The position numbers and the translations under genes were made by a program. This document shows, piece after piece, positions 2,191-56,085 of a DNA stretch of 64,000 nt. Location: assembly GCA_965224085.1 (NCBI GenBank), contig CBDCYI010000011.1, positions 1,184,001 to 1,248,000 on the forward strand, in the 5' to 3' direction. The stretch comes from Candidatus Marinacidobacterales bacterium (GTDB taxonomy: Bacteria > Acidobacteriota > Vicinamibacteria > Marinacidobacterales > SMYC01). Within the stretch, counting starts at the first letter, position 1. Each line of letters starts with the position of its first letter. The notes beneath the pieces were generated by a model. It was given only the letters and a program-made list of their open reading frames with translations. It was not told the DNA's origin and searched no databases.

Positions 2191-2619
2191 TTAATCGTCG
2201 TGGTCGACGGGACGTCGCGTCTGTTTCACGCCCGCGCGCCGGCGCTTGGCCTCGAGGCGGCGCGCTCGCGCTCGCGCTCGCGCCGAGACCTTTTTTCGTT
2301 CACGCTTCTTGGGTATCTCGGTGGCGCGGCGGACGAGCTCGACGAGGCGCTCGATGGCGTCTTCACGGTTCCTCGACTGTGATCGAAAGCGGCTCGCTTC
2401 GATCGTCACGACACCCTCGGACGTCATCTTGTTTCCGGCGATTTTGCGAAGCCGCGTGCGCACGTCGTCCGGAAGGGAGGGCGAGCTCTCGGCGTCGAAA
2501 CGAAGCTGTACCGCGGTCGACACTTTGTTGACGTGCTGACCGCCGGGGCCGCCCGCTCGGACGAATTTCAGGTCGATCTCCCACTCGTCCAGCTCGATTT
2601 CATCGGTTACAGGAATCAT
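2191..2619 (-). CDS. arfB: Alternative ribosome rescue factor ArfB (YaeJ)
   Basis: GGPGGQHVNKVSTAV (GGQ motif), RSQ..NR..A..RL and a basic C-terminal tail. Confidence 0.95.
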   Translation of the reverse strand: MIPVTDEIELDEWEIDLKFVRAGGPGGQHVNKVSTAVQLRFDAESSPSLPDDVRTRLRKIAGNKMTSEGVVTIEASRFRSQSRNREDAIERLVELVRRATEIPKKRERKKVSARARARARRLEAKRRRAGVKQTRRPVDHDD

Positions 2620-2881
2620 CTACTTAATAAGGATAACGCCGCGCGAAAGCTTTTGCCCGCTTCCGGTATAATCCGGCCCTTCGTGAGTGTATAGGGTAAG
2701 AGCGGTGACCCATAGGTCTTCGCTGTCGCCGATATCGAGAAGAGTGAATGGGTCGAAATCTAAACTCGCCGCCGCGCTCTCACTGTCCTGTACGCAAAGC
2801 GAGCCGCGTAATAGCCTCATCTTCGCATCGAGCGCCGACGCTACAACGCTCGACCCGACAATGAAGCGCCGGTAGGGGGGG

Positions 2882-4000
2882 CTACACCGCAACAAGAGGG
2901 GGTGGTTCAACTCTTCCCGGGCAGAGTTCATACGACGGCGCCGGTTCACCGACTCGGTCGGCTGAACGACGGTACGCGGCCATTTGCTCTTTGCCGAAGT
3001 CCAGCTCCGCCATGTACAAGTTGTGGCAGTGGCACATGAGCCGAATATTCTTCGCGCTACGATCGCCACCGAGTCCGTAAGCGTCGTTGTGATGGTACTC
3101 GAGCCGGTGGCGCTCGGGACATCGTTTGCCGTCAGGAGTGACGAACGTGCATCGCCCGCCATCTCGTGCCCACACGTAACGCTTCACCGCGGCAGCGATG
3201 CCACGCACACCCGGCGACGTGTCGGCGTCTTCGACTTTCGTTCTCGGATGATTCGTCTTCCCGAAACGCTTGGCTTCGAGCCGCTCGAGCTTCTCGCTCA
3301 CGGCCGCGTCGATGACCGAAGCGAGGTCACTGCCGGGAATGAGCGCCTCGAGCCGCTGGAGCTTGTCGCGAAGCGCGGCGCTAGCCGTGAACCGTACTTC
3401 GAAACGCGCCGGCGAAAGTGGCGCGACCGCCGGCCGCTTTTCAGGGATCGCCGGAGCGGCCGGAGGCGGCTCCGGCTCCTCGCGCGTGACAGCTCTGTCC
3501 GGGAAGAGTTCGTCCGACGATTCGGACGATTTGGACCGGGCCTGCCGTTGCGGCCTCTTTCGAATCGTCGGTGGAACATCCGGTTTCGGAGCCAACTCCG
3601 CCACGAGCTCTTCGAGGGCACGTTTGCTCTTGTGAGTGGCTCTTGCCAAGACCTCTTCGCAATTGGCCTCGGTGAGATGCTTTGAGATCACGGTGATACC
3701 ACACAAATGAATGCGACCATCCTCGAGCATCGCGAGGAGCATGGGAAATCTGCGTGACAGCCGAGCGGCGCTGATTCGCCGATAAGCTTCCGCTTCAGAT
3801 AAATGTAAAACGTCCATGCAGTAGCTGAACATCGACGGCGAAGCTTCTTTGGCGTAGAGACGCCGCGCATCGACTTCAGCGATATGCGCGACGAGCACAG
3901 CCTCGCCACGCCGCGACTGTTTCGAGACATCCGCCAGTCGAACAAGAAGCTCGTCATCCGATAATGCCGAGAGCGATTTCAAATCGTCCTTTGTGCTCAT
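2882..4000 (-). CDS. DUF222-like domain plus C-terminal HNH endonuclease
   Basis: N-terminal LVAHIAEVDARRLY...SMFSYC...LSEAEAYRRI.AARL; C-terminal VWARDGGRC...C...LEYHH...N...C.CHN (HNH). Confidence 0.85.
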   Translation of the reverse strand: MSTKDDLKSLSALSDDELLVRLADVSKQSRRGEAVLVAHIAEVDARRLYAKEASPSMFSYCMDVLHLSEAEAYRRISAARLSRRFPMLLAMLEDGRIHLCGITVISKHLTEANCEEVLARATHKSKRALEELVAELAPKPDVPPTIRKRPQRQARSKSSESSDELFPDRAVTREEPEPPPAAPAIPEKRPAVAPLSPARFEVRFTASAALRDKLQRLEALIPGSDLASVIDAAVSEKLERLEAKRFGKTNHPRTKVEDADTSPGVRGIAAAVKRYVWARDGGRCTFVTPDGKRCPERHRLEYHHNDAYGLGGDRSAKNIRLMCHCHNLYMAELDFGKEQMAAYRRSADRVGEPAPSYELCPGRVEPPPLVAV

Positions 4001-5147: not shown

Positions 5148-5225
5148 GGCTTCGCGGAGCAGCCAGGAGTGCTCGTCCGGTTGTCAGCCGGAAGGTCGCG
5201 GGTTCGAATCCCGCCGGAGCCGCCA
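5148..5225 (+). tRNA. tRNA-Asp(GTC), atypical (C at position 8)
   Basis: Acceptor GGCTTCG/CGGAGCC, D stem GAGC/GCTC, anticodon arm TCCGG-TTGTCAG-CCGGA, T arm GCGGG-TTCGAAT-CCCGC, G73 and encoded CCA. Confidence 0.88.
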
Positions 5226-5232
5226 TTTTCGT

Positions 5233-5309
5233 CGGAGTGTAGCGCAGACTGGCAGCGCGCCCGGCTTGGGACCGGGAGGCCGATGGTTCGAATCCATCCG
5301 CTCCGACCA
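5233..5309 (+). tRNA. tRNA-Pro(TGG)
   Basis: Acceptor CGGAGTG/CGCTCCG, anticodon arm CCCGG-CTTGGGA-CCGGG, T arm GATGG-TTCGAAT-CCATC, A73 and CCA. Confidence 0.92.
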
Positions 5310-5322
5310 GTTTGTGTTCGAT

Positions 5323-5397
5323 TGAGGCGTGGTCGATGGGTAAGGCACCCGGTTGTTACCCGGGCTCATGTAGGTGCGAATCCTACCGCGGCTTCCA
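5323..5397 (+). tRNA. Degenerate tRNA, anticodon GTT (Asn); probable pseudo-tRNA
   Basis: Anticodon arm CCCGG-TTGTTAC-CCGGG and T stem GTAGG/CCTAC are intact and CCA is present. T loop is TGCGAAT and the acceptor stem has 3 mismatches. Confidence 0.65.
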
Positions 5398-29752: not shown

Positions 29753-30102
29753 ATGCGCCTCAAGTCCCTGGTCGCGGTCGTCGTTGCCTCCCTCGCCGCA
29801 GGGATCAGTCTCGGTCAGTTCTCGTTGTTCGAGCGCTTGGACCTCGGCGGGGAGCCGGATCTCTCGAGCGCGCCGGAGTTCGTGTTCGCGCGCGTGCAGT
29901 TCGAGGGAACGTCCGGGCGCCGCCGCGGGGGATGGGCACACGACTACCCGCGGGCCGAGCAGAACCTTCTCAGAATCCTCGACGAGCTGACAGCCGTGCA
30001 CACCGAGCCCGCCGCCCACACGATCGTCTCGCTCGCGAGTCCCGAGATCATGAAGTACCCCGTGCTGTATTTCAGCGAGCCTGGCACGTGGGGCCTCACG
30101 GA
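29753..30102 (+). pseudogene. DUF4159-domain protein, 5' part (interrupted by the IS256/twintron)
   Basis: Signal peptide, FVFARVQF, WAHDYPRAEQNL and YP.LY.SEPG.W. It joins in frame to 39423 once the element and one TSD are removed. Confidence 0.9.
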
Positions 30103-30199
30103 GGGGATGGTCGAGTAGCTCAGCCATTCGGCTTTCGCCCTCACAGATCCGAGCGTGCGGCTTTCCCGCACTCGGCTCCTCCTGAAGGTATACCCGAAA

Positions 30200-31579
30200 T
30201 CAGACAAGGCAAGGTAGTCGGGACGGAGTGAGGTGAGGGACTGGTAGGGGAAAGCGCTCCAACAACAAGTGAAAACGAGGCCAGGTCATTCGGCGCTGAC
30301 TCCGCCGACGAAGGCTTCGAAACCACAACCGTGTCACCTCCTCAGAAAAGGATTGGAGAGAGCGGATGTTGCTGGGAAGTCCGTAGTACGCGTAGTGACC
30401 GCGCAGCACCTGGCAAAGCCAGCGATGCTGGACGGCGACTGGAGCATGCATACGTTGCTTCGCGCGAAGCCGTAGCGACTTGAGTTTGGCTCGTAGCCGC
30501 TGGCTCTGCGTTTTGCGCTTCACGACGAAACGGCCATCGCGGGTTCTCCCACAATAATGAGTGAAACCCAGGAAAGCGAACGTCGCACACCGCCGAAGGC
30601 CCCGTTGCTCGCGTGACAAGGAAGGTAATCTCCCGAACTCGAGCAAACGGGTCTTGTTCTCGTGGAGCGCAAGCCCGAATCGGGCTAGTCGCTCCTTGAG
30701 CGCTCTCATCATCCTGCTGGCATCGGTCCGATGCTGGAAGCCCATGACGAAGTCGTCAGCGTATCGCACGATGGAAATACGGCCTTGTGCTTCGAGCCGG
30801 CGCCATCGATGAACCCACAGATCTAGAACGTAGTGCAGAAAGACGTTAGCCAAGAGCGGGCTCACACCTGCCCCTTGCGGTGTCCCTTCAGTTGTCTCGC
30901 TCCACTCTCCTTTCTCCAGTACGCCGGCTCGCAACCACTGACGGATGAGTCGAAGGATGCGTTTGTCGGCGACCCGGTGCGAAAGCATCCGCATCAACCA
31001 CTCGTGGTCCACCGAGTCGAAGAACTTGCGGATGTCCGCGTCGAGAACCCAGTTCACGCGTTGCGTCATGAGCGCGGTGTGGAGCGCGTGCAACGCTTGG
31101 TGCGGGCTCCGTCCGGGCCGAAACCCGTACGAGAACCCGATGAAATCGACTTCGTAGACGGCGCTCAAAACCTCGGCTACCGCTCCTTGGACAATCTTGT
31201 CTTCCAGTGCGGGGATGCCAAGAGGGCGCTTTCCGCCATCCGACTTAGGAATGTACACGCGCCGCACCGGTAGTGGTCGGTAGCGACCGGCGTGTACCCG
31301 CGAGCAAAGATCCTTGATGTTGCTCACGAAGTTCTTCTCGTAATCGGCGACAGTCTCTCCGTCGACACCAGCGCTTGCGCTGCGCTTCAACCGACGAAAC
31401 GCTCGATAGAGCGCTTCGTGATCCACGTGATGCAGCAACGCAGTGAACCGAGCCTTTCTATCTCGCTTCGCTGCTTCGTTCACCCGCGTGAGATTTGGCG
31501 GTAAGGCGACCCGGCGCTGTGTCCGGACCTTAGCCCTCTCCCGTGGGTTCCCTCCAGGCCGATCCCTTCCCTCCACCAT
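30200..31579 (-). CDS. ltrA: Group II intron A reverse transcriptase/maturase (no endonuclease domain); start uncertain
   Basis: RPLGIP, SYGFRPGR, DADIRKFFD, GTPQG, RYADD and FLGF motifs plus domain X. Confidence 0.93.
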   Translation of the reverse strand: MVEGRDRPGGNPRERAKVRTQRRVALPPNLTRVNEAAKRDRKARFTALLHHVDHEALYRAFRRLKRSASAGVDGETVADYEKNFVSNIKDLCSRVHAGRYRPLPVRRVYIPKSDGGKRPLGIPALEDKIVQGAVAEVLSAVYEVDFIGFSYGFRPGRSPHQALHALHTALMTQRVNWVLDADIRKFFDSVDHEWLMRMLSHRVADKRILRLIRQWLRAGVLEKGEWSETTEGTPQGAGVSPLLANVFLHYVLDLWVHRWRRLEAQGRISIVRYADDFVMGFQHRTDASRMMRALKERLARFGLALHENKTRLLEFGRLPSLSREQRGLRRCATFAFLGFTHYCGRTRDGRFVVKRKTQSQRLRAKLKSLRLRAKQRMHAPVAVQHRWLCQVLRGHYAYYGLPSNIRSLQSFSEEVTRLWFRSLRRRSQRRMTWPRFHLLLERFPLPVPHLTPSRLPCLV

Positions 31580-31606
31580 CTCGTTGCCTTCGATAGCTTC
31601 CTCAGT

Positions 31607-33639
31607 GTCGGGTCGGAGGGGGCGCACCGCAGCGCTGACCCCCGTCCGCCGCTCAAACCGGACATACAGTTTTCCCGTATCCGGCTTTCACAAAGGTTGG
31701 ATTATTCATCGCGGCTTGATGGAAGGAATCAGGAAGACAAAGCGTACGAGGCCCATCTCATCGTAGAGCTGACGCTCCGGGAGCTGCTTCCACCCCCGAC
31801 AGCGCCAGCGTTTGAACCGATGCGACCAGATACGTCGCAGGATCCAACGATCGAGACGCGCGAAGAGCTTGCGGACGTGAGCTTTATGATAGTAAAGACC
31901 CCAACCGCGAATAACCGGGTTGATCTCGTCGATTAGCTGCTGCGTACTCACAGGAGCTTTGCGACAGGTCCGTCGCCGAATCTGATCCTTGAAGTGCTGG
32001 AGCGACTTCTGTCGAGGGTACGCGTACAGGTCACCCTTGCGGACACCCGTACGGATCTTGTGTGAGGGTAGGGCCAAAGGGCGACTACCCCGCTTGATCT
32101 TGTATCCCAAGAACTCGAAGCCGTGTGCAACGTGAACGATACGAGTCTTCTCCACGTTCAAGGTTACACCCAACGTCGTAAGGATCATCCGGGCTTCGGC
32201 CAGCACCTTCTGGGCCTCTGCCTTGGTGCAGCATGTCACGACCCAGTCGTCGGCATACCGCGTCAGGCGATAGCCACGATGGCGCATCTCCCGATCAAAC
32301 GGAGTCAAAAGGACGTTACTTAAGATCGGTGAGACCACACCGCCTTGCGGTGCACCTTGCTCGGTCGGGAGCCGTCTCCCCTCCGCCATGCAGCCTGCTT
32401 TGAGCATGCTGCGAATAAGACGAAGGACGCGACCATCCGACACTCGCTTGGCAACAAGAGCGAGGAGCTTCTCATGGTCCACAGTCCCAAAGAAATTGGA
32501 AAGATCCGCATCCACGATCCACTCGTAACCCTCTTCGATCTCTTGCCAGATCTTGCGTAAAGCATCCTTTGTCGATCTTCCTCGTCGATATCCGAAGCTG
32601 GCGGCATCGAACACCTGCTCGAAGATCGGTTCCAACCGGTTCTGCAGTGCCTGCTGACACACGCGGTCATAAACGGCCGGAATGCCGAGCGGGCGGAACT
32701 TTCCCGGTTGTCCAGCCTTGGGAATGAGTTTCTGCCGAACAGGTAGTGGACGATAGGCATCGGTCTTGAGCTCCTCATGGAGTCGGTTGAGGTGCGCATC
32801 AAGCTGCTCCTCAAACTCGTCCAGAGTTTGTCCATCGATGCCACCGGCACCCTTGTTCCGCTTCACTCGGTTCCAGGCCAGCTCCAAGTTCTTCCGCTTG
32901 TATATCTTGTCCACCAGAGAGTGGACCTTCCTCTCACCCGTTGGGTTCAACCAGGCCGACAGTTTCCTCGGACGATCACTTCTGGGTCTTTCACTAAAGG
33001 AACTTATCCGCGTCATCGCCCTTACTCGTCTGTCATCCTTGTTGTCACCAACCACCTTTGCCAGCCCCCTTCCCCAGCCCACTCGGCTGCCGATCTCTCG
33101 ATCACACGACTTTCACCGCGCTTCAGGTACTATTGGGCTGTCCGACGACTCACCCGGCTTCACTTCCCATTTCGCTCTCGCTTATAGGGTCGCTTATCCC
33201 GACGCCACTCGGGAACCCAATGAGCCCTCCTGGGGTCACGTCCAGATCTTCCGTACCGTGCCGTCCGCAAACACCTTGATTCGGTGGGTGAATGAGAACG
33301 CCTTCGCCTCCATAGTGCAGGCTCGACCTTGCCCCACCTTTGGCCGACCGGTTCATCAACGGGGTCGCCCCCTCGATTACGGCCCGGTACTGCTCCGCAT
33401 ACCCTTCAGATTCCACCTCGCGGTGGACACCCTGTCCTCCAGTTGTCCAGTGGACAGAACCCGAACTTAGGTACATCCCCTTGGCAGTAGCCATCGTTTC
33501 CAACTTCGTGCCCGTTTAGGGTTCTCCTTATCCGCGTTCCCCGGCCAGCGAGGCGTTACCCCCGCTTTTGGATATGGCGCTCCTCATCCGAGCACCAGAG
33601 GGACTTCAACCTTCCTGATCTGGACGCTGCCCAGCACAC
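31607..33639 (-). mobile_element. Group II intron B (inner, class F-like, tentative), left copy
   Basis: 5' GTGTG at 33639 and 3' ...CCGACCCGAC at 31607; mirror image of 35878-37910. Confidence 0.92.
31706..33016 (-). CDS. ltrA: Group II intron B reverse transcriptase/maturase (no endonuclease domain)
   Basis: RPLGIP, SFGYRRGR, DADLSNFF, GAPQGG and RYADD motifs; INPVIRGW..YY in domain X. Confidence 0.94.
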   Translation of the reverse strand: MTRISSFSERPRSDRPRKLSAWLNPTGERKVHSLVDKIYKRKNLELAWNRVKRNKGAGGIDGQTLDEFEEQLDAHLNRLHEELKTDAYRPLPVRQKLIPKAGQPGKFRPLGIPAVYDRVCQQALQNRLEPIFEQVFDAASFGYRRGRSTKDALRKIWQEIEEGYEWIVDADLSNFFGTVDHEKLLALVAKRVSDGRVLRLIRSMLKAGCMAEGRRLPTEQGAPQGGVVSPILSNVLLTPFDREMRHRGYRLTRYADDWVVTCCTKAEAQKVLAEARMILTTLGVTLNVEKTRIVHVAHGFEFLGYKIKRGSRPLALPSHKIRTGVRKGDLYAYPRQKSLQHFKDQIRRRTCRKAPVSTQQLIDEINPVIRGWGLYYHKAHVRKLFARLDRWILRRIWSHRFKRWRCRGWKQLPERQLYDEMGLVRFVFLIPSIKPR

Positions 33640-34134
33640 ACTATGAATCGGTCCGACTTCCGGCCTCAGCTCAGCACCGCGCTTCGGTTTTCCCTTGCGC
33701 GACGCCCCCATCGGTGACCATTCCGATGGACCCGGCCGGACCTCCTGGGTCCCGAAAGGAACTCTTCGTACGTGATGTGGTCCACGACCCCGGCGGAGCG
33801 TAACCATCTCGCGATAGCGATGGCCCACATGCTGCCTTCATTGACGGGAATCAACTCGGCCTTCCGCGATATTCAGCATTTCGAGGCTACATTCACACAC
33901 CCTGCACGACCCCTGTCTACGCTTCGGACCCCGCGTTGCCACGACGCCCGCAAGACTCGGTCCCGACCTGTCCGCTACGACTTTTGGTCGGATTGGACTT
34001 CCACCCATAGGCTCCTTTCAGTTAGCCCAGCGCACTCCCGCCGGCTGTTGAATTTGGGGTAGCGGCGGCTCCTTGGCCGGCCTAAGAATAGGTCTGCCAA
34101 ACAACCGTCTCCAGAGGGGGACAAGGAGCCACCA

Positions 34135-35430
34135 ATGCCTAGGAAATCAAAGAAGCCAGTAAGAAAGCAAACGCACTCGCCTACGGGCAAGGTAGTTGGC
34201 CAAGCCGGTCAGATACTGCTACCGATGATAGCTGGGATCGCGGCCACGAAGGCGGATCTGACGGAATGGGTGTACGAGCAAGGACTGACAGCTCTGCACC
34301 TACTGCTCAGAGAGGACGCCGAGGAGGTCGCGGGGCTCAAGGGCAAGCACGAGAAGGAGCGAACTCATAACCACTGGGGGAGCACGAACGGAGAGCTGAG
34401 CTTCGGTGGTCGTCGCATCCAAGTGTCGCGACCTCGAGTGCGTTCGAAGTCTGGTGAGGAGGCGTCGCTTCCACACTTCGAAGCCTTCCGCGAAGAAGAC
34501 CCGCTTCCAGAGCGAGTGTTGAATCAGATCTTGGTGGGGGTATCGACCCGAAATTACGAACGGAGTCTGGACAAACCCGCGGCCAAGTTGAAGTCTCGTG
34601 GCACGAGCAAGAGTGCCGCCAGCCGTCACCTCGTAAGCCAGACGACGAAGAAGCTCGAGCAATACCTGTCTCGGCGGCTAGAGGAGTACGAACTTGCGGC
34701 ACTGATGATGGATGGCCTTGAGGTGGCCGGCCAGACCGTCGTCGTAACTCTCGGTATCACAATAGATGGAACGAAGGTGCCCCTGGGTATATGGCTGGGC
34801 TCGACGGAAAACTCTCGGGTGTGCACCGCGATGTTGCAGGACCTTCTCGAGCGAGGCTTGCGCGTCGATGAGTCGATTCTCTGTGTAGTGGACGGAGGCA
34901 AAGGTATCCGCAAGGCACTCGTCGACGTGTTGGGGGATCTCGCGGTCATCCAAAGGTGCCAGATCCATAAACTCCGAAATCTTCGCTCGTACCTTCCCAA
35001 GTCTCGTCACGCCTACGTGCTCCAGACGATGAAGAAAGCCTACAAGTGCAAGAGTGCCGACAAGGCGCGCAAGCGACTTCAGGCATTGGTGTCGTGGCTC
35101 GAGCGAAACAGCCACGATGAAGCTGCCGGAAGCCTTCGCGAAGGGATGGAAGAGACGCTCACGGTCGTGAAGCTCGCTCTGCCCGAGTTACTTCGCCAGT
35201 CTCTTGCCACGACGAACGCCATTGAGAATCTCAACGGAACCATTCGAAGAGTATCGAGAAACGTCAAGCGTTGGAAGAGTCCTTCGATGGTTCGCCGATG
35301 GACCGCTCTCGGCGTCGTCACGGCGGAGAAGAAGTTCCGGCGTATCAAAGGCTATCGCCATATGGGCGCTCTCGTTCACGCGCTTAGAAGCAAACAGAAA
35401 TCTCTTGACAGCGATGAGTTTGCTGCCTAA
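34135..35430 (+). CDS. IS256-family (Mutator-like) DDE transposase
   Basis: GVSTR.Y, LMMDG, VVDGGKG, QRCQIHK.RN and TTNAIE.LN..IRR; AAGGAG RBS. Confidence 0.95.
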   Translation: MPRKSKKPVRKQTHSPTGKVVGQAGQILLPMIAGIAATKADLTEWVYEQGLTALHLLLREDAEEVAGLKGKHEKERTHNHWGSTNGELSFGGRRIQVSRPRVRSKSGEEASLPHFEAFREEDPLPERVLNQILVGVSTRNYERSLDKPAAKLKSRGTSKSAASRHLVSQTTKKLEQYLSRRLEEYELAALMMDGLEVAGQTVVVTLGITIDGTKVPLGIWLGSTENSRVCTAMLQDLLERGLRVDESILCVVDGGKGIRKALVDVLGDLAVIQRCQIHKLRNLRSYLPKSRHAYVLQTMKKAYKCKSADKARKRLQALVSWLERNSHDEAAGSLREGMEETLTVVKLALPELLRQSLATTNAIENLNGTIRRVSRNVKRWKSPSMVRRWTALGVVTAEKKFRRIKGYRHMGALVHALRSKQKSLDSDEFAA

Positions 35431-35877
35431 GAGTATTCACAGGTGCCGCCGCTACCCGACCAAATTCAACAGCCGCCGGGAGTGCGCTGGGCTAACTGAA
35501 AGGAGCCTATGGGTGGAAGTCCAATCCGACCAAAAGTCGTAGCGGACAGGTCGGGACCGAGTCTTGCGGGCGTCGTGGCAACGCGGGGTCCGAAGCGTAG
35601 ACAGGGGTCGTGCAGGGTGTGTGAATGTAGCCTCGAAATGCTGAATATCGCGGAAGGCCGAGTTGATTCCCGTCAATGAAGGCAGCATGTGGGCCATCGC
35701 TATCGCGAGATGGTTACGCTCCGCCGGGGTCGTGGACCACATCACGTACGAAGAGTTCCTTTCGGGACCCAGGAGGTCCGGCCGGGTCCATCGGAATGGT
35801 CACCGATGGGGGCGTCGCGCAAGGGAAAACCGAAGCGCGGTGCTGAGCTGAGGCCGGAAGTCGGACCGATTCATAGT

Positions 35878-37910
35878 GTGTGCTGGGCAGCGTCCAGATC
35901 AGGAAGGTTGAAGTCCCTCTGGTGCTCGGATGAGGAGCGCCATATCCAAAAGCGGGGGTAACGCCTCGCTGGCCGGGGAACGCGGATAAGGAGAACCCTA
36001 AACGGGCACGAAGTTGGAAACGATGGCTACTGCCAAGGGGATGTACCTAAGTTCGGGTTCTGTCCACTGGACAACTGGAGGACAGGGTGTCCACCGCGAG
36101 GTGGAATCTGAAGGGTATGCGGAGCAGTACCGGGCCGTAATCGAGGGGGCGACCCCGTTGATGAACCGGTCGGCCAAAGGTGGGGCAAGGTCGAGCCTGC
36201 ACTATGGAGGCGAAGGCGTTCTCATTCACCCACCGAATCAAGGTGTTTGCGGACGGCACGGTACGGAAGATCTGGACGTGACCCCAGGAGGGCTCATTGG
36301 GTTCCCGAGTGGCGTCGGGATAAGCGACCCTATAAGCGAGAGCGAAATGGGAAGTGAAGCCGGGTGAGTCGTCGGACAGCCCAATAGTACCTGAAGCGCG
36401 GTGAAAGTCGTGTGATCGAGAGATCGGCAGCCGAGTGGGCTGGGGAAGGGGGCTGGCAAAGGTGGTTGGTGACAACAAGGATGACAGACGAGTAAGGGCG
36501 ATGACGCGGATAAGTTCCTTTAGTGAAAGACCCAGAAGTGATCGTCCGAGGAAACTGTCGGCCTGGTTGAACCCAACGGGTGAGAGGAAGGTCCACTCTC
36601 TGGTGGACAAGATATACAAGCGGAAGAACTTGGAGCTGGCCTGGAACCGAGTGAAGCGGAACAAGGGTGCCGGTGGCATCGATGGACAAACTCTGGACGA
36701 GTTTGAGGAGCAGCTTGATGCGCACCTCAACCGACTCCATGAGGAGCTCAAGACCGATGCCTATCGTCCACTACCTGTTCGGCAGAAACTCATTCCCAAG
36801 GCTGGACAACCGGGAAAGTTCCGCCCGCTCGGCATTCCGGCCGTTTATGACCGCGTGTGTCAGCAGGCACTGCAGAACCGGTTGGAACCGATCTTCGAGC
36901 AGGTGTTCGATGCCGCCAGCTTCGGATATCGACGAGGAAGATCGACAAAGGATGCTTTACGCAAGATCTGGCAAGAGATCGAAGAGGGTTACGAGTGGAT
37001 CGTGGATGCGGATCTTTCCAATTTCTTTGGGACTGTGGACCATGAGAAGCTCCTCGCTCTTGTTGCCAAGCGAGTGTCGGATGGTCGCGTCCTTCGTCTT
37101 ATTCGCAGCATGCTCAAAGCAGGCTGCATGGCGGAGGGGAGACGGCTCCCGACCGAGCAAGGTGCACCGCAAGGCGGTGTGGTCTCACCGATCTTAAGTA
37201 ACGTCCTTTTGACTCCGTTTGATCGGGAGATGCGCCATCGTGGCTATCGCCTGACGCGGTATGCCGACGACTGGGTCGTGACATGCTGCACCAAGGCAGA
37301 GGCCCAGAAGGTGCTGGCCGAAGCCCGGATGATCCTTACGACGTTGGGTGTAACCTTGAACGTGGAGAAGACTCGTATCGTTCACGTTGCACACGGCTTC
37401 GAGTTCTTGGGATACAAGATCAAGCGGGGTAGTCGCCCTTTGGCCCTACCCTCACACAAGATCCGTACGGGTGTCCGCAAGGGTGACCTGTACGCGTACC
37501 CTCGACAGAAGTCGCTCCAGCACTTCAAGGATCAGATTCGGCGACGGACCTGTCGCAAAGCTCCTGTGAGTACGCAGCAGCTAATCGACGAGATCAACCC
37601 GGTTATTCGCGGTTGGGGTCTTTACTATCATAAAGCTCACGTCCGCAAGCTCTTCGCGCGTCTCGATCGTTGGATCCTGCGACGTATCTGGTCGCATCGG
37701 TTCAAACGCTGGCGCTGTCGGGGGTGGAAGCAGCTCCCGGAGCGTCAGCTCTACGATGAGATGGGCCTCGTACGCTTTGTCTTCCTGATTCCTTCCATCA
37801 AGCCGCGATGAATAATCCAACCTTTGTGAAAGCCGGATACGGGAAAACTGTATGTCCGGTTTGAGCGGCGGACGGGGGTCAGCGCTGCGGTGCGCCCCCT
37901 CCGACCCGAC
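35878..37910 (+). mobile_element. Group II intron B (inner), right copy, inserted in domain III of intron A
   Basis: 5' GTGTG after ...ATTCATAGT. EBS1 ACTATG (36201-36206) is the exact complement of CATAGT. D5 AAGCCGGATACGGGAAAACTGTATGTCCGGTTT; 3' ...CCCGAC, followed by ACTGAGGAAG. Confidence 0.93.
36501..37811 (+). CDS. ltrA: Group II intron B reverse transcriptase/maturase
   Basis: Translation identical to 31706-33016; YADD motif. Confidence 0.94.
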   Translation: MTRISSFSERPRSDRPRKLSAWLNPTGERKVHSLVDKIYKRKNLELAWNRVKRNKGAGGIDGQTLDEFEEQLDAHLNRLHEELKTDAYRPLPVRQKLIPKAGQPGKFRPLGIPAVYDRVCQQALQNRLEPIFEQVFDAASFGYRRGRSTKDALRKIWQEIEEGYEWIVDADLSNFFGTVDHEKLLALVAKRVSDGRVLRLIRSMLKAGCMAEGRRLPTEQGAPQGGVVSPILSNVLLTPFDREMRHRGYRLTRYADDWVVTCCTKAEAQKVLAEARMILTTLGVTLNVEKTRIVHVAHGFEFLGYKIKRGSRPLALPSHKIRTGVRKGDLYAYPRQKSLQHFKDQIRRRTCRKAPVSTQQLIDEINPVIRGWGLYYHKAHVRKLFARLDRWILRRIWSHRFKRWRCRGWKQLPERQLYDEMGLVRFVFLIPSIKPR

Positions 37911-37937
37911 ACTGAGGAAGCTATCGAAGGCAACGAG

Positions 37938-39317
37938 ATGGTGGAGGGAAGGGATCGGCCTGGAGGGAACCCACGGGAGAGGGCTAAGGTCCGGACACAG
38001 CGCCGGGTCGCCTTACCGCCAAATCTCACGCGGGTGAACGAAGCAGCGAAGCGAGATAGAAAGGCTCGGTTCACTGCGTTGCTGCATCACGTGGATCACG
38101 AAGCGCTCTATCGAGCGTTTCGTCGGTTGAAGCGCAGCGCAAGCGCTGGTGTCGACGGAGAGACTGTCGCCGATTACGAGAAGAACTTCGTGAGCAACAT
38201 CAAGGATCTTTGCTCGCGGGTACACGCCGGTCGCTACCGACCACTACCGGTGCGGCGCGTGTACATTCCTAAGTCGGATGGCGGAAAGCGCCCTCTTGGC
38301 ATCCCCGCACTGGAAGACAAGATTGTCCAAGGAGCGGTAGCCGAGGTTTTGAGCGCCGTCTACGAAGTCGATTTCATCGGGTTCTCGTACGGGTTTCGGC
38401 CCGGACGGAGCCCGCACCAAGCGTTGCACGCGCTCCACACCGCGCTCATGACGCAACGCGTGAACTGGGTTCTCGACGCGGACATCCGCAAGTTCTTCGA
38501 CTCGGTGGACCACGAGTGGTTGATGCGGATGCTTTCGCACCGGGTCGCCGACAAACGCATCCTTCGACTCATCCGTCAGTGGTTGCGAGCCGGCGTACTG
38601 GAGAAAGGAGAGTGGAGCGAGACAACTGAAGGGACACCGCAAGGGGCAGGTGTGAGCCCGCTCTTGGCTAACGTCTTTCTGCACTACGTTCTAGATCTGT
38701 GGGTTCATCGATGGCGCCGGCTCGAAGCACAAGGCCGTATTTCCATCGTGCGATACGCTGACGACTTCGTCATGGGCTTCCAGCATCGGACCGATGCCAG
38801 CAGGATGATGAGAGCGCTCAAGGAGCGACTAGCCCGATTCGGGCTTGCGCTCCACGAGAACAAGACCCGTTTGCTCGAGTTCGGGAGATTACCTTCCTTG
38901 TCACGCGAGCAACGGGGCCTTCGGCGGTGTGCGACGTTCGCTTTCCTGGGTTTCACTCATTATTGTGGGAGAACCCGCGATGGCCGTTTCGTCGTGAAGC
39001 GCAAAACGCAGAGCCAGCGGCTACGAGCCAAACTCAAGTCGCTACGGCTTCGCGCGAAGCAACGTATGCATGCTCCAGTCGCCGTCCAGCATCGCTGGCT
39101 TTGCCAGGTGCTGCGCGGTCACTACGCGTACTACGGACTTCCCAGCAACATCCGCTCTCTCCAATCCTTTTCTGAGGAGGTGACACGGTTGTGGTTTCGA
39201 AGCCTTCGTCGGCGGAGTCAGCGCCGAATGACCTGGCCTCGTTTTCACTTGTTGTTGGAGCGCTTTCCCCTACCAGTCCCTCACCTCACTCCGTCCCGAC
39301 TACCTTGCCTTGTCTGA
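37938..39317 (+). CDS. ltrA: Group II intron A reverse transcriptase/maturase; start could be 37938 or 38034
   Basis: Translation identical to the left copy; YADD motif. Confidence 0.93.
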   Translation: MVEGRDRPGGNPRERAKVRTQRRVALPPNLTRVNEAAKRDRKARFTALLHHVDHEALYRAFRRLKRSASAGVDGETVADYEKNFVSNIKDLCSRVHAGRYRPLPVRRVYIPKSDGGKRPLGIPALEDKIVQGAVAEVLSAVYEVDFIGFSYGFRPGRSPHQALHALHTALMTQRVNWVLDADIRKFFDSVDHEWLMRMLSHRVADKRILRLIRQWLRAGVLEKGEWSETTEGTPQGAGVSPLLANVFLHYVLDLWVHRWRRLEAQGRISIVRYADDFVMGFQHRTDASRMMRALKERLARFGLALHENKTRLLEFGRLPSLSREQRGLRRCATFAFLGFTHYCGRTRDGRFVVKRKTQSQRLRAKLKSLRLRAKQRMHAPVAVQHRWLCQVLRGHYAYYGLPSNIRSLQSFSEEVTRLWFRSLRRRSQRRMTWPRFHLLLERFPLPVPHLTPSRLPCLV

Positions 39318-39422
39318 TTTCGGGTATACCTTCAGGAGGAGCCGAGTGCGGGAAAGCCGCACGCTCGGATCTGTGAGGGCGAAAGCCGAATGGCTGAGCT
39401 ACTCGACCATCCCCCTCACGGA

Positions 39423-54929: not shown

Positions 54930-56085
54930 GTGCGTCCAGCTAAGGCTGGCGTGTTCAGTGGGAGTCAGTCCCACCGGGGCAAGAGCCAGAAGCCCCGTAG
55001 CTTGGATAGCAGGAAGGAGGGAAACCGAATGACCTGAAGCCTATCGACAAAGCCATCGTAAGGGATGGTGAGCGAGTCATCGGGCCGTAACGCAAGTGAA
55101 CGCAGAAGTAGCCTCGAAAGAAGTCACTCCGGAGGCCGAGCCCTTGTTTGGGGGGTGAAGGCAGCATGGGACGTCGCAGATTGGCCGAAGCGTCCTCGCA
55201 CTCCGGCGGGGTCGCAGCGACAGCACGGTGACAAGGACACGCTAAGCAACTGGAGAGGCCCTCCTCGTCCCATAGGGAGACCCGTGAAGCAACGCCGTCA
55301 GTATAACCGGCATCCCCCGGGAAATCGGACGGCAGGCGAGAGGGAGTCGGAGGGGTCCATATTAGCGATGAAGCGGAGTAATGCCCGTGGAGCGAAGGGG
55401 CCCTACTGTACAAGGAATCTTTTGACCAATGGGAGGCAGAGGCGATGACACAAGCGCCGATAGAGCTGCAAGACCTGAGACGAAAGATATATGCGAAGGC
55501 GAAGGCGGATAAGCGCCATCGCTTTTGGGGCATCTACGTCCACATCTGCAAGGAGGAAACGCTTCGCAAAGCCTACGACCGGGCAAAGGCCAACGGCGGC
55601 GCCCCGGGAATTGATGGGGTGACGTTCGAGTCCATTGAGGCCTCGGACGGAGGGGTTGCGAGTTTCGTCGAGCAGTTACGGGACGAGTTGGTGAGAGACG
55701 ACTACCGGCCCCAGCCGAATCGGCGCAAGGAGATACCCAAGGACGGCGGCAAGAAAGTCCGCGTGCTGGGTATTCCCACGATCCGAGACCGGGTGGTGCA
55801 AGGTGCCGTCAAGCTCATCTTGGAGCCCATTTTCGAGGCAGACTTCCAACCAGGCTCGTTTGGGTACCGGCTTAATCGGAGTGCTCATCATACGATACAT
55901 CGGGTCGTGGTGAGCATCACTCAGGAAAAGACACGCGTCATCGATTTGGATTTGAAAAGCTACTTCGACAATGTCAGGCACCACATATTGATGGAGAAAG
56001 TGGCTCGTAGGGTCAGCGACCGACAAGTGCTTCGCCTGTTGAAGTTGATGCTCAAAGCGAATGGCAAGAAAGGAGTTCCTCAGGG
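54930..56085 (+). mobile_element. Group II intron C, 5' half only
   Basis: 5' GTGCG at 54930; D1/D3 motifs (GAAGGCAGCAT, GGAGTCGGAGGGGTCCATATTAGCGATGAAG...GAAGGGGCCCT); D5/D6 absent. Confidence 0.85.
55445..56085 (+). pseudogene. ltrA: Group II intron RT/maturase truncated after the PQG motif
   Basis: APGIDG, R.LGIPTIRDR, DLDLKSYFD and GVPQG, then a junction; no YADD. Confidence 0.9.

What the first reader, a model, noticed from the sequence alone, without database searches (positions are those of the whole stretch)
35464..35676. Outer intron appears programmed to target IS256 terminal inverted repeats
Seen: the EBS1 hairpin TTGA-TTCCCG-TCAA (35663-35676) presents TCCCG, complementary to the last 5 nt of the 5' exon (CGGGA) at both ends, although the two TIRs differ just upstream (GCCGCCGGGA versus GCCGGCGGGA). 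A candidate EBS2, TGCTGAAT (35639-35646), pairs 7/8 with ATTCAACA (35464-35471), which is shared by both TIRs; it lies further upstream than a typical IBS2, so it is tentative. Inference: the intron reads TIR positions the IS cannot easily mutate. It gains two new targets per transposition and lands in non-essential DNA, a niche comparable to class C introns targeting terminators or attC sites.
Basis: partly seen in the sequence, partly recalled or inferred. Interest (0 to 1): 0.85.

Follow-up and report, generated by a model that had tools for sequence, protein, structure and literature searches.

The report
Intron homing into IS256 transposon ends
A mobile self-splicing intron has inserted into both end-repeats of an IS256-type jumping gene by base-pairing with a short conserved sequence there, a targeting trick already described for one other bacterial intron.

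Summary
An IS256-family element spans window 30103-39414 and has an 8-bp target duplication. Each of its two terminal inverted repeats (TIRs) is split 7 bp from the tip by the same 3926-nt twintron, reading outward.

The outer intron is 1893 nt without its guest. It looks like class E and its reverse transcriptase has no endonuclease domain. Its EBS1 loop (UCCCG, 35668-35672) pairs with the last five exon bases (CGGGA).

- In this genome, 11 of 11 5' junctions and 12 of 12 3' junctions carry the TIR motifs.
- In 26 distinct intron/target pairs from other genomes, the EBS1 loop changes together with the exon.
- Close relatives sit at the same 7-bp offset in other IS256-family TIRs.

Covariation, however, favours the conventional partner CAGC (35470-35473), not ATTCAACA.

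The strategy is already published for RmInt2, a class D intron that targets the repeats of ISRm17 (an ISNCY element). So this is a new member of a known kind.

Three further points:
- Insertion probably disables the invaded IS end (inferred, not tested).
- Five related genomes carry dozens of intron-free copies of this IS.
- IS copies invaded at both ends show exchange of TIR bases between the two ends.

The parts
30095..30102 (.). Left copy of the 8-bp target-site duplication CTCACGGA of the IS
   Evidence: Same 8 bases at 39415-39422.
30103..30109 (+). Outer 7 bp of the left TIR (IS tip, GGGGATG). It is the 3' exon of the minus-strand intron.
   Evidence: Uninterrupted TIRs in this genome and in relatives read ...CGGGA directly followed by CATCCCC.
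30110..34035 (-). Left twintron: outer intron with an inner intron at 31607-33639. It matches the right copy without a mismatch over its 3926 nt.
   Evidence: Inverted repeat arms 30103-34057 / 35460-39414, BLAST, Rfam hits on the minus strand.
34036..35481 (+). Body of the IS256-family element, with the inner parts of both TIRs. Transposase gene at 34135-35430.
   Evidence: PF00872 at 144.7 bits. NCBIfam NF033543 IS256 family transposase at 224.9 bits, cut-off 150.
35470..35473 (+). Most likely IBS2 (CAGC, exon positions -12..-9)
   Evidence: Pairs with GCUG at 35640-35643. Compensatory changes in relatives. Tentative: 6 of 11 occupied targets in this genome read CATC here.
35477..35481 (+). 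IBS1 (CGGGA), the last 5 nt of the 5' exon. These are TIR positions 8-12 from the tip.
35482..39407 (+). Right twintron. The outer intron is 35482-35877 plus 37911-39407 (1893 nt without the guest).
   Evidence: 5' GTGCG. RF02005 at 35516-35739. Domain V/VI hit RF00029 at 39337-39407. Copies without the inner intron define the two parts.
35639..35646 (+). EBS2 loop segment (UGCUGAAU, core GCUG at 35640-35643)
   Evidence: Unpaired stretch in the RF02005 alignment. The aligned segment varies with the exon in relatives.
35663..35676 (+). EBS1 hairpin. EBS1 is UCCCG at 35668-35672, and the following U can wobble-pair with a G at -6.
35732..35732 (+). Candidate EBS3 (G), pairing with the first 3' exon base C (39408)
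   Evidence: The only alignment column that follows the +1 base, with one exception among 20 sequences. Tentative.
35878..37910 (+). Inner (guest) group II intron, 2033 nt (GTGTG...CGAC). It sits in domain IV of the outer intron just upstream of the outer RT start. Its own RT is at 36435-37811.
   Evidence: TIGR04416 at 393 bits. A joint 35877>37911 in contigs of two public runs shows the guest-free form.
37938..39317 (+). Outer intron reverse transcriptase/maturase, 459 aa from the ATG. It has YADD and no endonuclease domain.
   Evidence: PF00078. TIGR04416 at 365.4 bits, cut-off 300. YADD present and class D C-terminal motif absent.
39339..39372 (+). Domain V of the outer intron, with a 5-nt loop GAAAG
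   Evidence: A 5-nt loop is the class E/F feature named in PMC3753933.
39373..39407 (+). Domain VI with a bulged A, and the 3' end ...CUCGAC
   Evidence: RF00029 alignment.
39408..39414 (+). Outer 7 bp of the right TIR (CATCCCC). It is the 3' exon of the plus-strand intron.
39415..39422 (.). Right copy of the 8-bp target-site duplication CTCACGGA

Best explanation
The outer element is a mobile group II intron of the class E type. Its ribozyme is about 513 nt and it encodes a reverse transcriptase/maturase without an endonuclease domain. Its homing site is the terminal inverted repeat of an IS256-family insertion sequence.

Proposed mechanism:
1. The spliced intron RNA, bound to its protein, finds the TIR by base pairing. 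EBS1 (UCCCG) pairs with CGGGA at TIR positions 8-12. Probably EBS3 (G) pairs with the C at position 7. Weakly, EBS2 (GCUG) pairs with CAGC four bases further in.
2. The RNA reverse-splices between TIR positions 7 and 8.
3. The RNA is copied into DNA. Because there is no endonuclease, priming by a nascent strand at a replication fork is inferred.

The two TIRs of an IS are inverted copies, so each IS offers the site once on each strand. Both ends can therefore be invaded, with the introns pointing outward, as seen here.

Shown by the data: the anatomy, the site specificity, EBS1/IBS1 covariation, and the same niche in relatives.

Inferred: RNA-mediated retrohoming, the priming mode, and loss of transposition function at a split TIR.
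For: Anatomy:
- Exact intron ends lie inside a TIR whose uninterrupted form exists in this genome (2 empty ends) and in 60 copies fetched from five related genomes.
- An 8-bp duplication flanks the whole structure.

Site specificity in this genome:
- 11 of 11 5' junctions and 12 of 12 3' junctions carry the TIR motifs.
- 7 of the 8 ends of the four full-length IS copies are occupied.
- Two chance occurrences of CGGGACATCCCC outside a TIR are not invaded.

Independent insertions:
- The three doubly occupied ISs differ in which end carries the inner intron. Different 8-bp duplications could be read for two of them; the right intron of the third is truncated.
- One full-length IS is occupied at one end only.

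Relatives:
- EBS1 covaries with the exon.
- RT relatives of 64-77% identity sit in TIR-like targets in 12 of 14 loci that have enough upstream flank. A Mutator/IS256-type transposase lies next to 8 of those 14.
- An empty opposite TIR lies about 1.4 kb away in 4 loci, with matching 8-9-bp duplications in 3 of the 4.
- One locus (L035) has two inverted introns around a 1.4-kb IS, with the duplication CGCCGTAA.

Protein and RNA families:
- TIGR04416 at 365 bits with YADD present.
- RF02005 at 140.9 bits and RF00029 at 53.2 bits.

Independent data: contigs of two public runs from two studies bridge the IS-intron junction.

Precedent: RmInt2 in the inverted repeats of ISRm17 was shown experimentally to retrohome there (PMC4615759, passages and section 6 read).
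Against: - No RNA or splicing evidence was obtained. The RNA runs gave only scattered contigs of relatives.
- EBS2-IBS2 is weak. 6 of 11 occupied targets in this genome have a mismatch in the 4-bp helix. The two empty ends have the perfect CAGC.
- One copy (G000:C11:193429-195321) is not next to any IS256 transposase. Only 17 + 7 nt of TIR-like sequence surround it.
- Base exchange between the two TIRs of doubly occupied ISs shows that DNA-level recombination also acts at these ends. So not every feature of the present copies need come from retrohoming.
- Class E membership rests on indirect evidence.
Confidence: 0.88

Rival explanations
1. The introns are cargo. The IS acquired an intron once, and the whole composite (tip + intron + IS + intron + tip) transposes as a unit. 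In that case the TIR location reflects IS movement, not intron targeting.
For: The 7-bp tips and an 8-bp duplication flank the whole composite. An IS of a related superfamily that carries a group II RT gene as a passenger is mentioned in PMC3942029 (one passage read).
Against: - No two composites have the same make-up. The ends differ in presence of the inner intron and in truncation.
- One full-length IS has one occupied and one empty end.
- Relatives L036, L039, L041 and L043 are occupied at one end only.
- 60 copies of the same IS fetched from five related genomes carry no intron.
- EBS1 covaries with the exon across unrelated targets.
Confidence: 0.04
2. The second end of an IS is filled at the DNA level, by recombination or gene conversion from the already invaded end of the same IS or from another copy, rather than by a second retrohoming event.
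For: All three doubly occupied ISs have TIR patches (-10..-6) shifted toward the state of the opposite end. This affects 4 of 6 ends, and 7 of 8 changed bases equal the other TIR's base. The figure is 0 of 4 for singly occupied ends, 0 of 2 for empty ends, and 1 of 99 for ends in intron-free relatives.
Against: - Beyond the 3' junction only 7 bp are shared, which is too little for ordinary homologous recombination.
- The same pattern would arise from gene conversion after two independent insertions.
- It would also arise from cDNA synthesis running into the donor's 5' exon.
- The two ends of two of the three ISs differ in inner-intron content.
Confidence: 0.07
3. The 3955-nt inverted repeat is an assembly artefact or a single large inverted duplication.
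For: The two arms match without a mismatch over the 3926 nt of the intron.
Against: - The arms stop exactly at the IS tips, and the sequences beyond them are the two copies of a direct 8-bp duplication.
- The arms carry one mismatch inside the TIR.
- The same junctions occur at 9 other places in the genome.
- The junction also appears in contigs of two other public runs.
Confidence: 0.01

Closest known systems
[quoted passage not shown]
   Same: An endonuclease-less group II intron whose natural target is the inverted repeat of an IS, so each IS offers two sites on opposite strands. EBS2 pairing is relaxed (4 bp). Many copies occur in one genome and none in sister strains.
   Different: RmInt2 is class D. 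The class D C-terminal motif is absent here. ISRm17 is an ISNCY/ISDol1-group element (PMC10194956), not IS256. The position of the RmInt2 site within the repeat is in a supplementary figure that I could not see.
RmInt1 in ISRm2011-2 (class D; PMC4615759, PMC5894124, PMC1802570)
   Same: An intron that lives in an IS. PMC5894124 states that its insertion blocks the spread of the IS.
   Different: In the passages read, its target is named only as ISRm2011-2, not as an inverted repeat of it. That points to one site per IS, which is my inference.
Class E (IIE) group II introns, such as Cl.be.I2 and the S. meliloti class E intron (PMC3753933, PMC5894124; Toro et al. 2002, not seen)
   Same: Small ribozyme (about 513 nt here, 450-700 nt in the paper). 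5-nt loop in domain V. EBS1 and EBS2 both in domain Id. RT 65-70% identical to introns on S. meliloti plasmids. One of those plasmid copies lies in the same kind of target.
   Different: No named class E protein was available for a tree, so class assignment is indirect. Whether the IS256-TIR niche of this clade is already described in the 2002 paper or in the intron database could not be checked.
Class C (IIC) introns at terminators and attC sites
   Same: Endonuclease-less introns that use a recurring, non-coding DNA motif as their landing site.
   Different: Class C introns lack EBS2, have a short EBS1, and recognise a stem-loop structure (PMC7923331, PMC4424553 passages). Here recognition is by sequence, with a 5-6-bp EBS1 and an EBS2. 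Domain V has the usual length of about 34 nt; that class C domain V is shorter is recalled, not read.
Bacterial and archaeal twintrons that home into other group II introns (PMC4424553, section on twintrons)
   Same: A second intron sits at one fixed site inside the first. It is present in 6 of the 11 outer copies that have a 5' end.
   Different: Here the nesting has three levels: IS, intron, intron.

Membership tests
Mobile group II intron | 5' GUGYG, domain I, domain V and domain VI with a bulged A, and a 3' AY end | tested here: met
   GTGCG at 35482. RF02005 at 140.9 bits (gathering 49). RF00029 at 53.2 bits (gathering 40), with the bulged A and an end in AC at 39407.
Mobile group II intron | Intron-encoded reverse transcriptase/maturase in domain IV with an intact active site | tested here: met
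   TIGR04416 at 365.4 bits (cut-off 300). YADD present.
Mobile group II intron | EBS1-IBS1 pairing that defines the 5' exon | tested here: met
   UCCCG/CGGGA. Covariation in 26 intron/target combinations.
Mobile group II intron | Splicing and retrohoming activity | not testable with these tools
   Only inferred from 15 copies and fragments that are 99.8-100% identical to the window copy, and from empty sites.
Class E (IIE) introns | 5-nt loop in domain V and a small ribozyme of 450-700 nt (PMC3753933) | tested here: met
   Loop GAAAG between six base pairs. 1893 - 1380 = 513 nt outside the ORF. The paper gives both features for classes E and F together.
Class E (IIE) introns | RT groups with named class E proteins in a tree | tested here: inconclusive
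   65-70% identity to introns on S. meliloti plasmids, including a disrupted copy in strain GR4. PMC5894124 says GR4 holds one disrupted class E intron, but gives no coordinates in the passages read. No tree was made.
Class E (IIE) introns | Alpha' at the tip of a stem-loop in domain Id3, and an extra bulge there | not tested
   -
Class D introns (RmInt1/RmInt2) | C-terminal motif LX3AX3PXLF[V/A]HW (PMC4615759) | tested here: not met
   No match in the 459-aa protein.
Class C (IIC) introns | No EBS2, a 3-4-bp EBS1, and a target stem-loop just upstream | tested here: not met
   5-6-bp EBS1 and a covarying EBS2 segment. The target is one arm of a TIR, not a hairpin.
IS256 family insertion sequence | Single DDE transposase of the Mutator/IS256 type | tested here: met
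   NF033543 at 224.9 bits (cut-off 150). PF00872 at 144.7 bits.
IS256 family insertion sequence | Imperfect terminal inverted repeats, 8-9-bp target duplication, about 1.3-1.5 kb (family features recalled, not read) | tested here: met
   With the introns left out the element is 1460 bp. The first 29 TIR positions match at 28. 8-bp duplications. Relatives of 1457-1460 bp.

The most novel reading that the evidence does not exclude
A lineage of class E introns found in several phyla is a specialised hyperparasite of IS256-family transposons. It always enters 7 bp from the IS tip and retunes EBS1/EBS2 to each IS subfamily. By separating the cleavage site from the rest of the TIR, it sterilises the invaded end. 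It would then act as a natural brake on IS256 expansions. In this genome 7 of 8 ends of full-length copies are hit, while related genomes with dozens of copies have none. The inverted intron pairs it creates then drive gene conversion between the two IS ends.
Probability: 0.3. Interest if true: 0.65.

Novelty: new member of a known kind. Interest (0 to 1): 0.5.

Why it matters
It gives a second, independent case of an intron that uses transposon end-repeats as its landing site. The intron class and the IS family both differ from the first case, and the natural covariation is clear enough to read the targeting code directly from genomes.

If the split TIR is indeed dead, this is a mobile element that neutralises another mobile element. 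That would bear on how IS expansions are checked. The contrast with related genomes that hold many intron-free copies of the same IS makes this testable.

Class E introns are small and active in vitro (PMC3753933). A natural set of retargeted EBS1/EBS2 variants could help in designing gene-targeting tools.

Tried and rejected
1. The pairing exists. UGAAU/AUUCA is kept in 10 of the 11 targets in this genome, and the eleventh has G instead of A at -18, a wobble with the U. In L035 only a distal helix fits both ends. But the distal window does not separate own exons from foreign ones: 21 of 26 against 405 of 634 have 4 bp or more. The proximal window does: 21 of 26 against 232 of 646. The nearest relatives also show two compensatory changes in the proximal helix. 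I rank the distal register second and do not exclude it.

2. Class C analogy and class D membership. Both rejected; see the membership test.

3. Fold energy of a single sequence. It is not better than shuffles, so I did not use it as evidence.

4. EBS3. No alignment column follows the first 3' exon base without exception. One column does so with a single exception. Tentative only.

5. Search for the inverted partner TIR upstream of relatives' introns. It was found in 4 of the 17 loci where the search ran. In L035 the partner is itself occupied. The others may be solo or truncated ends.

6. tblastn with this transposase found a homologue next to 7 related loci. Pfam added L037. L038, L048, L057 and L061 have TIR-like exons but no IS256 transposase ORF in the upstream 1.7 kb.

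7. RNA runs X15 and X16 gave only short contigs, mostly 90-95% alike. No conclusion on transcription or splicing.

8. Literature searches. Searches found no open-access paper that describes a class E intron homing into IS256 TIRs. The library lacks Toro et al. 2002 (not held) and the intron database. Supplements, including Fig. S1 of PMC4615759, were closed. The claim 'not described' is therefore weak.

9. Structure prediction, complex prediction, the search for homologous proteins and the search of protein representatives were not used. Nothing in the question needed them.
Full report
WHAT IS THERE

The window holds an IS256-family insertion sequence whose two ends are each interrupted by the same nested pair of group II introns. 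The repeat finder gives inverted arms at 30103-34057 and 35460-39414, each 3955 nt long, with 1402 nt between them. Between the arms lies a 431-aa transposase gene (34135-35430). It matches PF00872 and NCBIfam NF033543 'IS256 family transposase' at 224.9 bits, above the cut-off of 150.

Rfam finds the following on each arm:
- a domain I-IV match, RF02005, at 140.9 bits (35516-35739 on the plus arm);
- two domain V/VI matches, RF00029 (37828-37910 and 39337-39407 on the plus arm).

Each arm also has two reverse transcriptase genes. Both match TIGR04416, the group II intron RT/maturase model, above its cut-off.

BOUNDARIES

The plus-strand unit starts with GTGCG at 35482. It ends with ...CUACUCGAC at 39407, after a domain VI with a bulged A. 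Its 5' exon ends in ...TTCAACAGCCGCCGGGA. Its 3' exon is CATCCCC, followed by CTCACGGA.

The minus-strand unit (30110-34035) has the 5' exon ...TTCAACAGCCGGCGGGA and the same 3' exon. The reverse complement of its flank gives CTCACGGA again.

So the IS runs from 30103 to 39414 and is flanked by an 8-bp target duplication. Each intron sits between TIR positions 7 and 8 counted from the IS tip, reading outward. With the introns left out the element is 1460 bp, and its two ends match at 28 of the first 29 positions.

TWO INTRONS, ONE INSIDE THE OTHER

A BLAST of the 3926-nt unit against the whole genome finds copies in which positions 1-396 are joined directly to 2430-3926.
- The outer intron is therefore 1893 nt.
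- The inner one is 2033 nt (35878-37910, GTGTG...CGAC).
- The inner intron lies between CATAGT and ACTGAGG, just upstream of the outer RT start at 37938.
- 6 of the 11 outer copies that have a 5' end carry the guest, and 5 do not.
- One guest stands alone at G000:C9:853579-855616, in a site that shares TAGT|A.

IS THE TIR THE TARGET?

In this genome the outer intron or a piece of it occurs at 15 places.
- All 11 copies with a 5' end are preceded by TTCAACA-N5-CGGGA.
- All 12 copies with a 3' end are followed by CATCCCC.
- 10 of the 11 5' junctions abut recognisable IS sequence. The eleventh has only 17 + 7 nt of TIR-like sequence, in a non-IS context.
- Uninterrupted ends (CGGGA directly followed by CATCCCC) exist at G000:C4:895324-895347, which is the other end of an IS invaded at one end, and on contig C7.
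- Of the 8 ends of the four full-length IS copies, 7 are occupied.
- Two chance occurrences of the 12-mer CGGGACATCCCC outside any TIR are not invaded.
- The three doubly occupied ISs differ in which end holds the guest intron. For two of them I could read different 8-bp duplications, CTCACGGA and CCCGGCAG. They were therefore invaded where they stand and not copied as composites.

THE PAIRING

The Rfam alignment places 35663-35676 as a stem-loop. The loop UUCCCGU presents UCCCG (35668-35672), which is complementary to CGGGA (35477-35481). The minimum-energy and centroid folds also contain the hairpin. The energy of the piece is no better than shuffles, so I give the fold itself no weight.

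The real test is comparison across relatives. The search for related loci with the outer RT returned 79 loci at 47-77% identity. nhmmer and MAFFT placed the 5' parts of 26 of them beside the window copy.

The aligned loop changes with the exon:

| Loop | Exon end | Loci |
|---|---|---|
| UCCCA | UGGGA | L034 |
| UCGCG | CGCGA | L035, L036, L057 |
| GCCAAA | UUUGGC | L033 |
| CCCGCA | UGCGGG | L055 |
| UUCAAA | UUUGAA | L050, L051 |
| UCAGAU | AUCUGA | L052 |

Over 26 distinct intron/target combinations, the helix anchored at exon position -1 averages 5.5 bp with the intron's own exon and 2.98 bp with other exons. A helix of 5 bp or more occurs in 21 of 26 own pairs against 90 of 620 crossed pairs. 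These sequences are related, so the numbers describe the pattern and are not probabilities.

EBS2

Two mutually exclusive partners exist:
- CAGC at -12..-9 (35470-35473), pairing with GCUG.

The proximal register is backed by compensatory changes:

| EBS2 | Exon | Locus |
|---|---|---|
| GCUG | CAGC | window |
| GUAG | CUAC | L032, L034 (the two RT relatives with the highest identity among those aligned) |
| UGUGG | CCACA | L061 |
| GGUGG | CCACC | L039 |
| UUGGC | GCCAA | L054 |
| GGGA | UCCC | L050 |
| UCGGA | UCCGG | L051 |

The proximal window separates own exons from foreign ones (21 of 26 against 232 of 646 with 4 bp or more). The distal window does not (21 of 26 against 405 of 634).

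Three things count against the proximal register.
- 6 of 11 occupied targets here read CATC, one mismatch in four.
- The two empty ends have the perfect CAGC.
- In L035 only a distal helix fits both ends.

I conclude that EBS2 pairing is short and tolerant. The same was reported for RmInt2 (PMC4615759), and for class E self-splicing, where EBS2 was dispensable in vitro (PMC3753933).

A candidate EBS3 (G at 35732) follows the first 3' exon base in 19 of 20 sequences.

RELATIVES OCCUPY THE SAME NICHE

14 loci have an RT of 64-77% identity and at least 1.2 kb of upstream flank. In 12 of them the 5' exon is TIR-like, of the form TTCAAC.., TACACCAC.. or TTTCCAC.., then five or six variable bases, then (C/T/G/A)G(G/C)GA. 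The exceptions are L033 and L046.
- A Mutator/IS256-type transposase lies directly upstream in 8 loci: L035, L036, L039, L040, L041, L043 and L047 by tblastn, and L037 by Pfam.
- In L036, L039, L041 and L043 the opposite, uninterrupted TIR lies about 1.4 kb away.
- In three of those four, 8-9-bp duplications flank IS plus intron. This puts the intron 7 bp from the tip, as here.
- L035 has two inverted introns around a 1.4-kb IS, with the duplication CGCCGTAA.
- A copy on a Sinorhizobium meliloti plasmid (65% RT identity) has the same kind of exons.

More distant relatives (63% identity or less) sit elsewhere. One of them, L055, lies in the loop of domain V of another group II intron.

WHICH KIND OF INTRON

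The RT has YADD, no endonuclease domain, and no class D C-terminal motif. The ribozyme part is about 513 nt, and domain V has a 5-nt loop. Both are features given for classes E and F in PMC3753933 (Introduction read).

The closest annotated relatives are introns on S. meliloti and Bradyrhizobium plasmids. They include a disrupted copy in strain GR4, for which PMC5894124 (passages read) reports one disrupted class E intron. I take the intron to be class E, but I made no tree with named members.

HOW IT MOST LIKELY WORKS

The intron RNA-protein particle recognises the TIR by EBS1, EBS3 and, weakly, EBS2. It reverse-splices between TIR positions 7 and 8 and is copied into DNA.

Without an endonuclease, priming from a nascent strand at a replication fork is expected. 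That is established for En-minus introns (PMC4424553, passage read). With one site on each strand of every IS, one site always faces the favourable strand. This is the argument made for RmInt2 (PMC4615759). These steps are inferred here.

Also inferred: an end in which 1.9-3.9 kb separate the tip from the rest of the TIR can no longer serve the transposase, so the intron would immobilise the IS it invades. PMC5894124 says that RmInt1 insertion blocks the spread of ISRm2011-2.

CONTEXT IN RELATED GENOMES

The last 82 nt of the IS occur in 14 of 40 other genomes of the same order, at up to 15 or more places each. In every case the match stops at the intron junction. The tally includes the unpublished G027, on which no claim rests.

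I fetched 60 such copies from five genomes. All 60 right ends are uninterrupted, and 39 of the copies are full length with both ends uninterrupted. The intron burst is thus private to this genome among those searched.

Contigs of two public runs from two studies bridge the IS-intron junction. They also contain the guest-free form of the outer intron.

AN UNEXPECTED DETAIL: BASE EXCHANGE BETWEEN THE TWO ENDS

In the 60 intron-free copies, the five bases at -10..-6 are fixed for each end.
- The left TIR reads TCCGG in 39 of 39 copies.
- The right TIR reads GCGGC in 59 of 60 copies.

In this genome the two empty ends and the four singly occupied ends have these canonical forms. The three doubly occupied ISs do not:

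| IS | Left end | Right end |
|---|---|---|
| window | GCCGG | GCCGC |
| C4 | TCCGG | TCCGA |
| C5 | GCGGC | GCGGC |

8 of the 19 substitutions among the four full-length ISs fall in these 10 positions out of 1446. 7 of those 8 changed bases equal the base of the opposite TIR.

It points either to gene conversion between the long inverted intron copies that runs a few bases into the TIR, or to transfer of donor exon bases during mobility. I could not tell which.

KNOWN OR NEW

The strategy is in print. RmInt2 is a class D intron, and all its copies lie in the inverted repeats of ISRm17. [quoted passage not shown] ISRm17 is an ISNCY/ISDol1-group element (PMC10194956, passage read).

Here the intron class (E-like) and the IS family (IS256) both differ, and the niche is shared by a clade found in several phyla. 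My searches found no open-access description of this. The founding class E paper (Toro et al. 2002) is not held.

VERDICT

It is a new member of a known kind and of moderate interest.

Noticed in passing
window 35878-37910 (and 31607-33639 on the minus strand); G000:C9:853579-855616: A second group II intron (2033 nt, own RT with a GIIM domain, weak RF02001 match) is nested in domain IV of the outer intron, between CATAGT and ACTGAGG. It is in 6 of the 11 outer copies that have a 5' end. It also stands alone once, in a site that shares TAGT|A. Together this gives three levels of nesting: IS, intron, intron.
   Followed up: partly
window 34041-34045 and 35472-35476; G000 C4:256434-257879 and C5:2150184-2151629: The 5-nt TIR patch at -10..-6 is fixed per end in 60 intron-free copies in relatives (left TCCGG, right GCGGC). 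It is mosaic or swapped in 4 of the 6 ends of the three doubly occupied ISs, and 7 of 8 changed bases equal the other end's base. This suggests gene conversion between the inverted intron pairs, or co-conversion of the 5' exon.
   Followed up: partly
G000:C11:193429-195321 (locus L184 2030-3922, minus strand): One complete outer intron lies outside any recognisable IS256 copy. Only 17 nt upstream and 7 nt downstream are TIR-like, and the next upstream ORF is an ADP-ribosylglycohydrolase fragment. It may be a solo TIR remnant, or a move that carried exon bases along. Unexplained.
   Followed up: partly
L055 446-2333: A more distant relative of the outer intron is inserted in the GAAAG loop of domain V of another group II intron (exons ...GAGCCGGATGCGGG | AAAGCCGCACGTCCGGTTCT). 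Its EBS1 matches that site.
   Followed up: no
G002, G003, G010, G012, G016 (loci L124-L183): The same IS (about 94-97% identical over its full length) is present in many copies in related genomes of two families, and none of the 60 fetched copies carries the intron. Such a conserved IS across families suggests recent horizontal spread of the IS.
   Followed up: partly
G000 C11:486544-487611, C4:1823517-1824760, C5:1938342-1939455, C5:2297164-2298277: Four 5'-truncated pieces of the outer intron keep the exact 3' junction with CATCCCC but have unrelated sequence upstream. The two on C5 have identical flanks on both sides, so they belong to a larger duplication.
   Followed up: no
G000:C4:1360216-1360232 (minus strand): A left TIR is followed by only the first four intron bases (GTGC) and then unrelated sequence. 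This may be the scar of a deleted intron.
   Followed up: no
window 54956-55095: A third group II intron domain I-IV match of another type (RF02003, 118.3 bits, plus strand).
   Followed up: no
window 5148-5394: A cluster of three tRNA genes (Rfam RF00005 hits).
   Followed up: no
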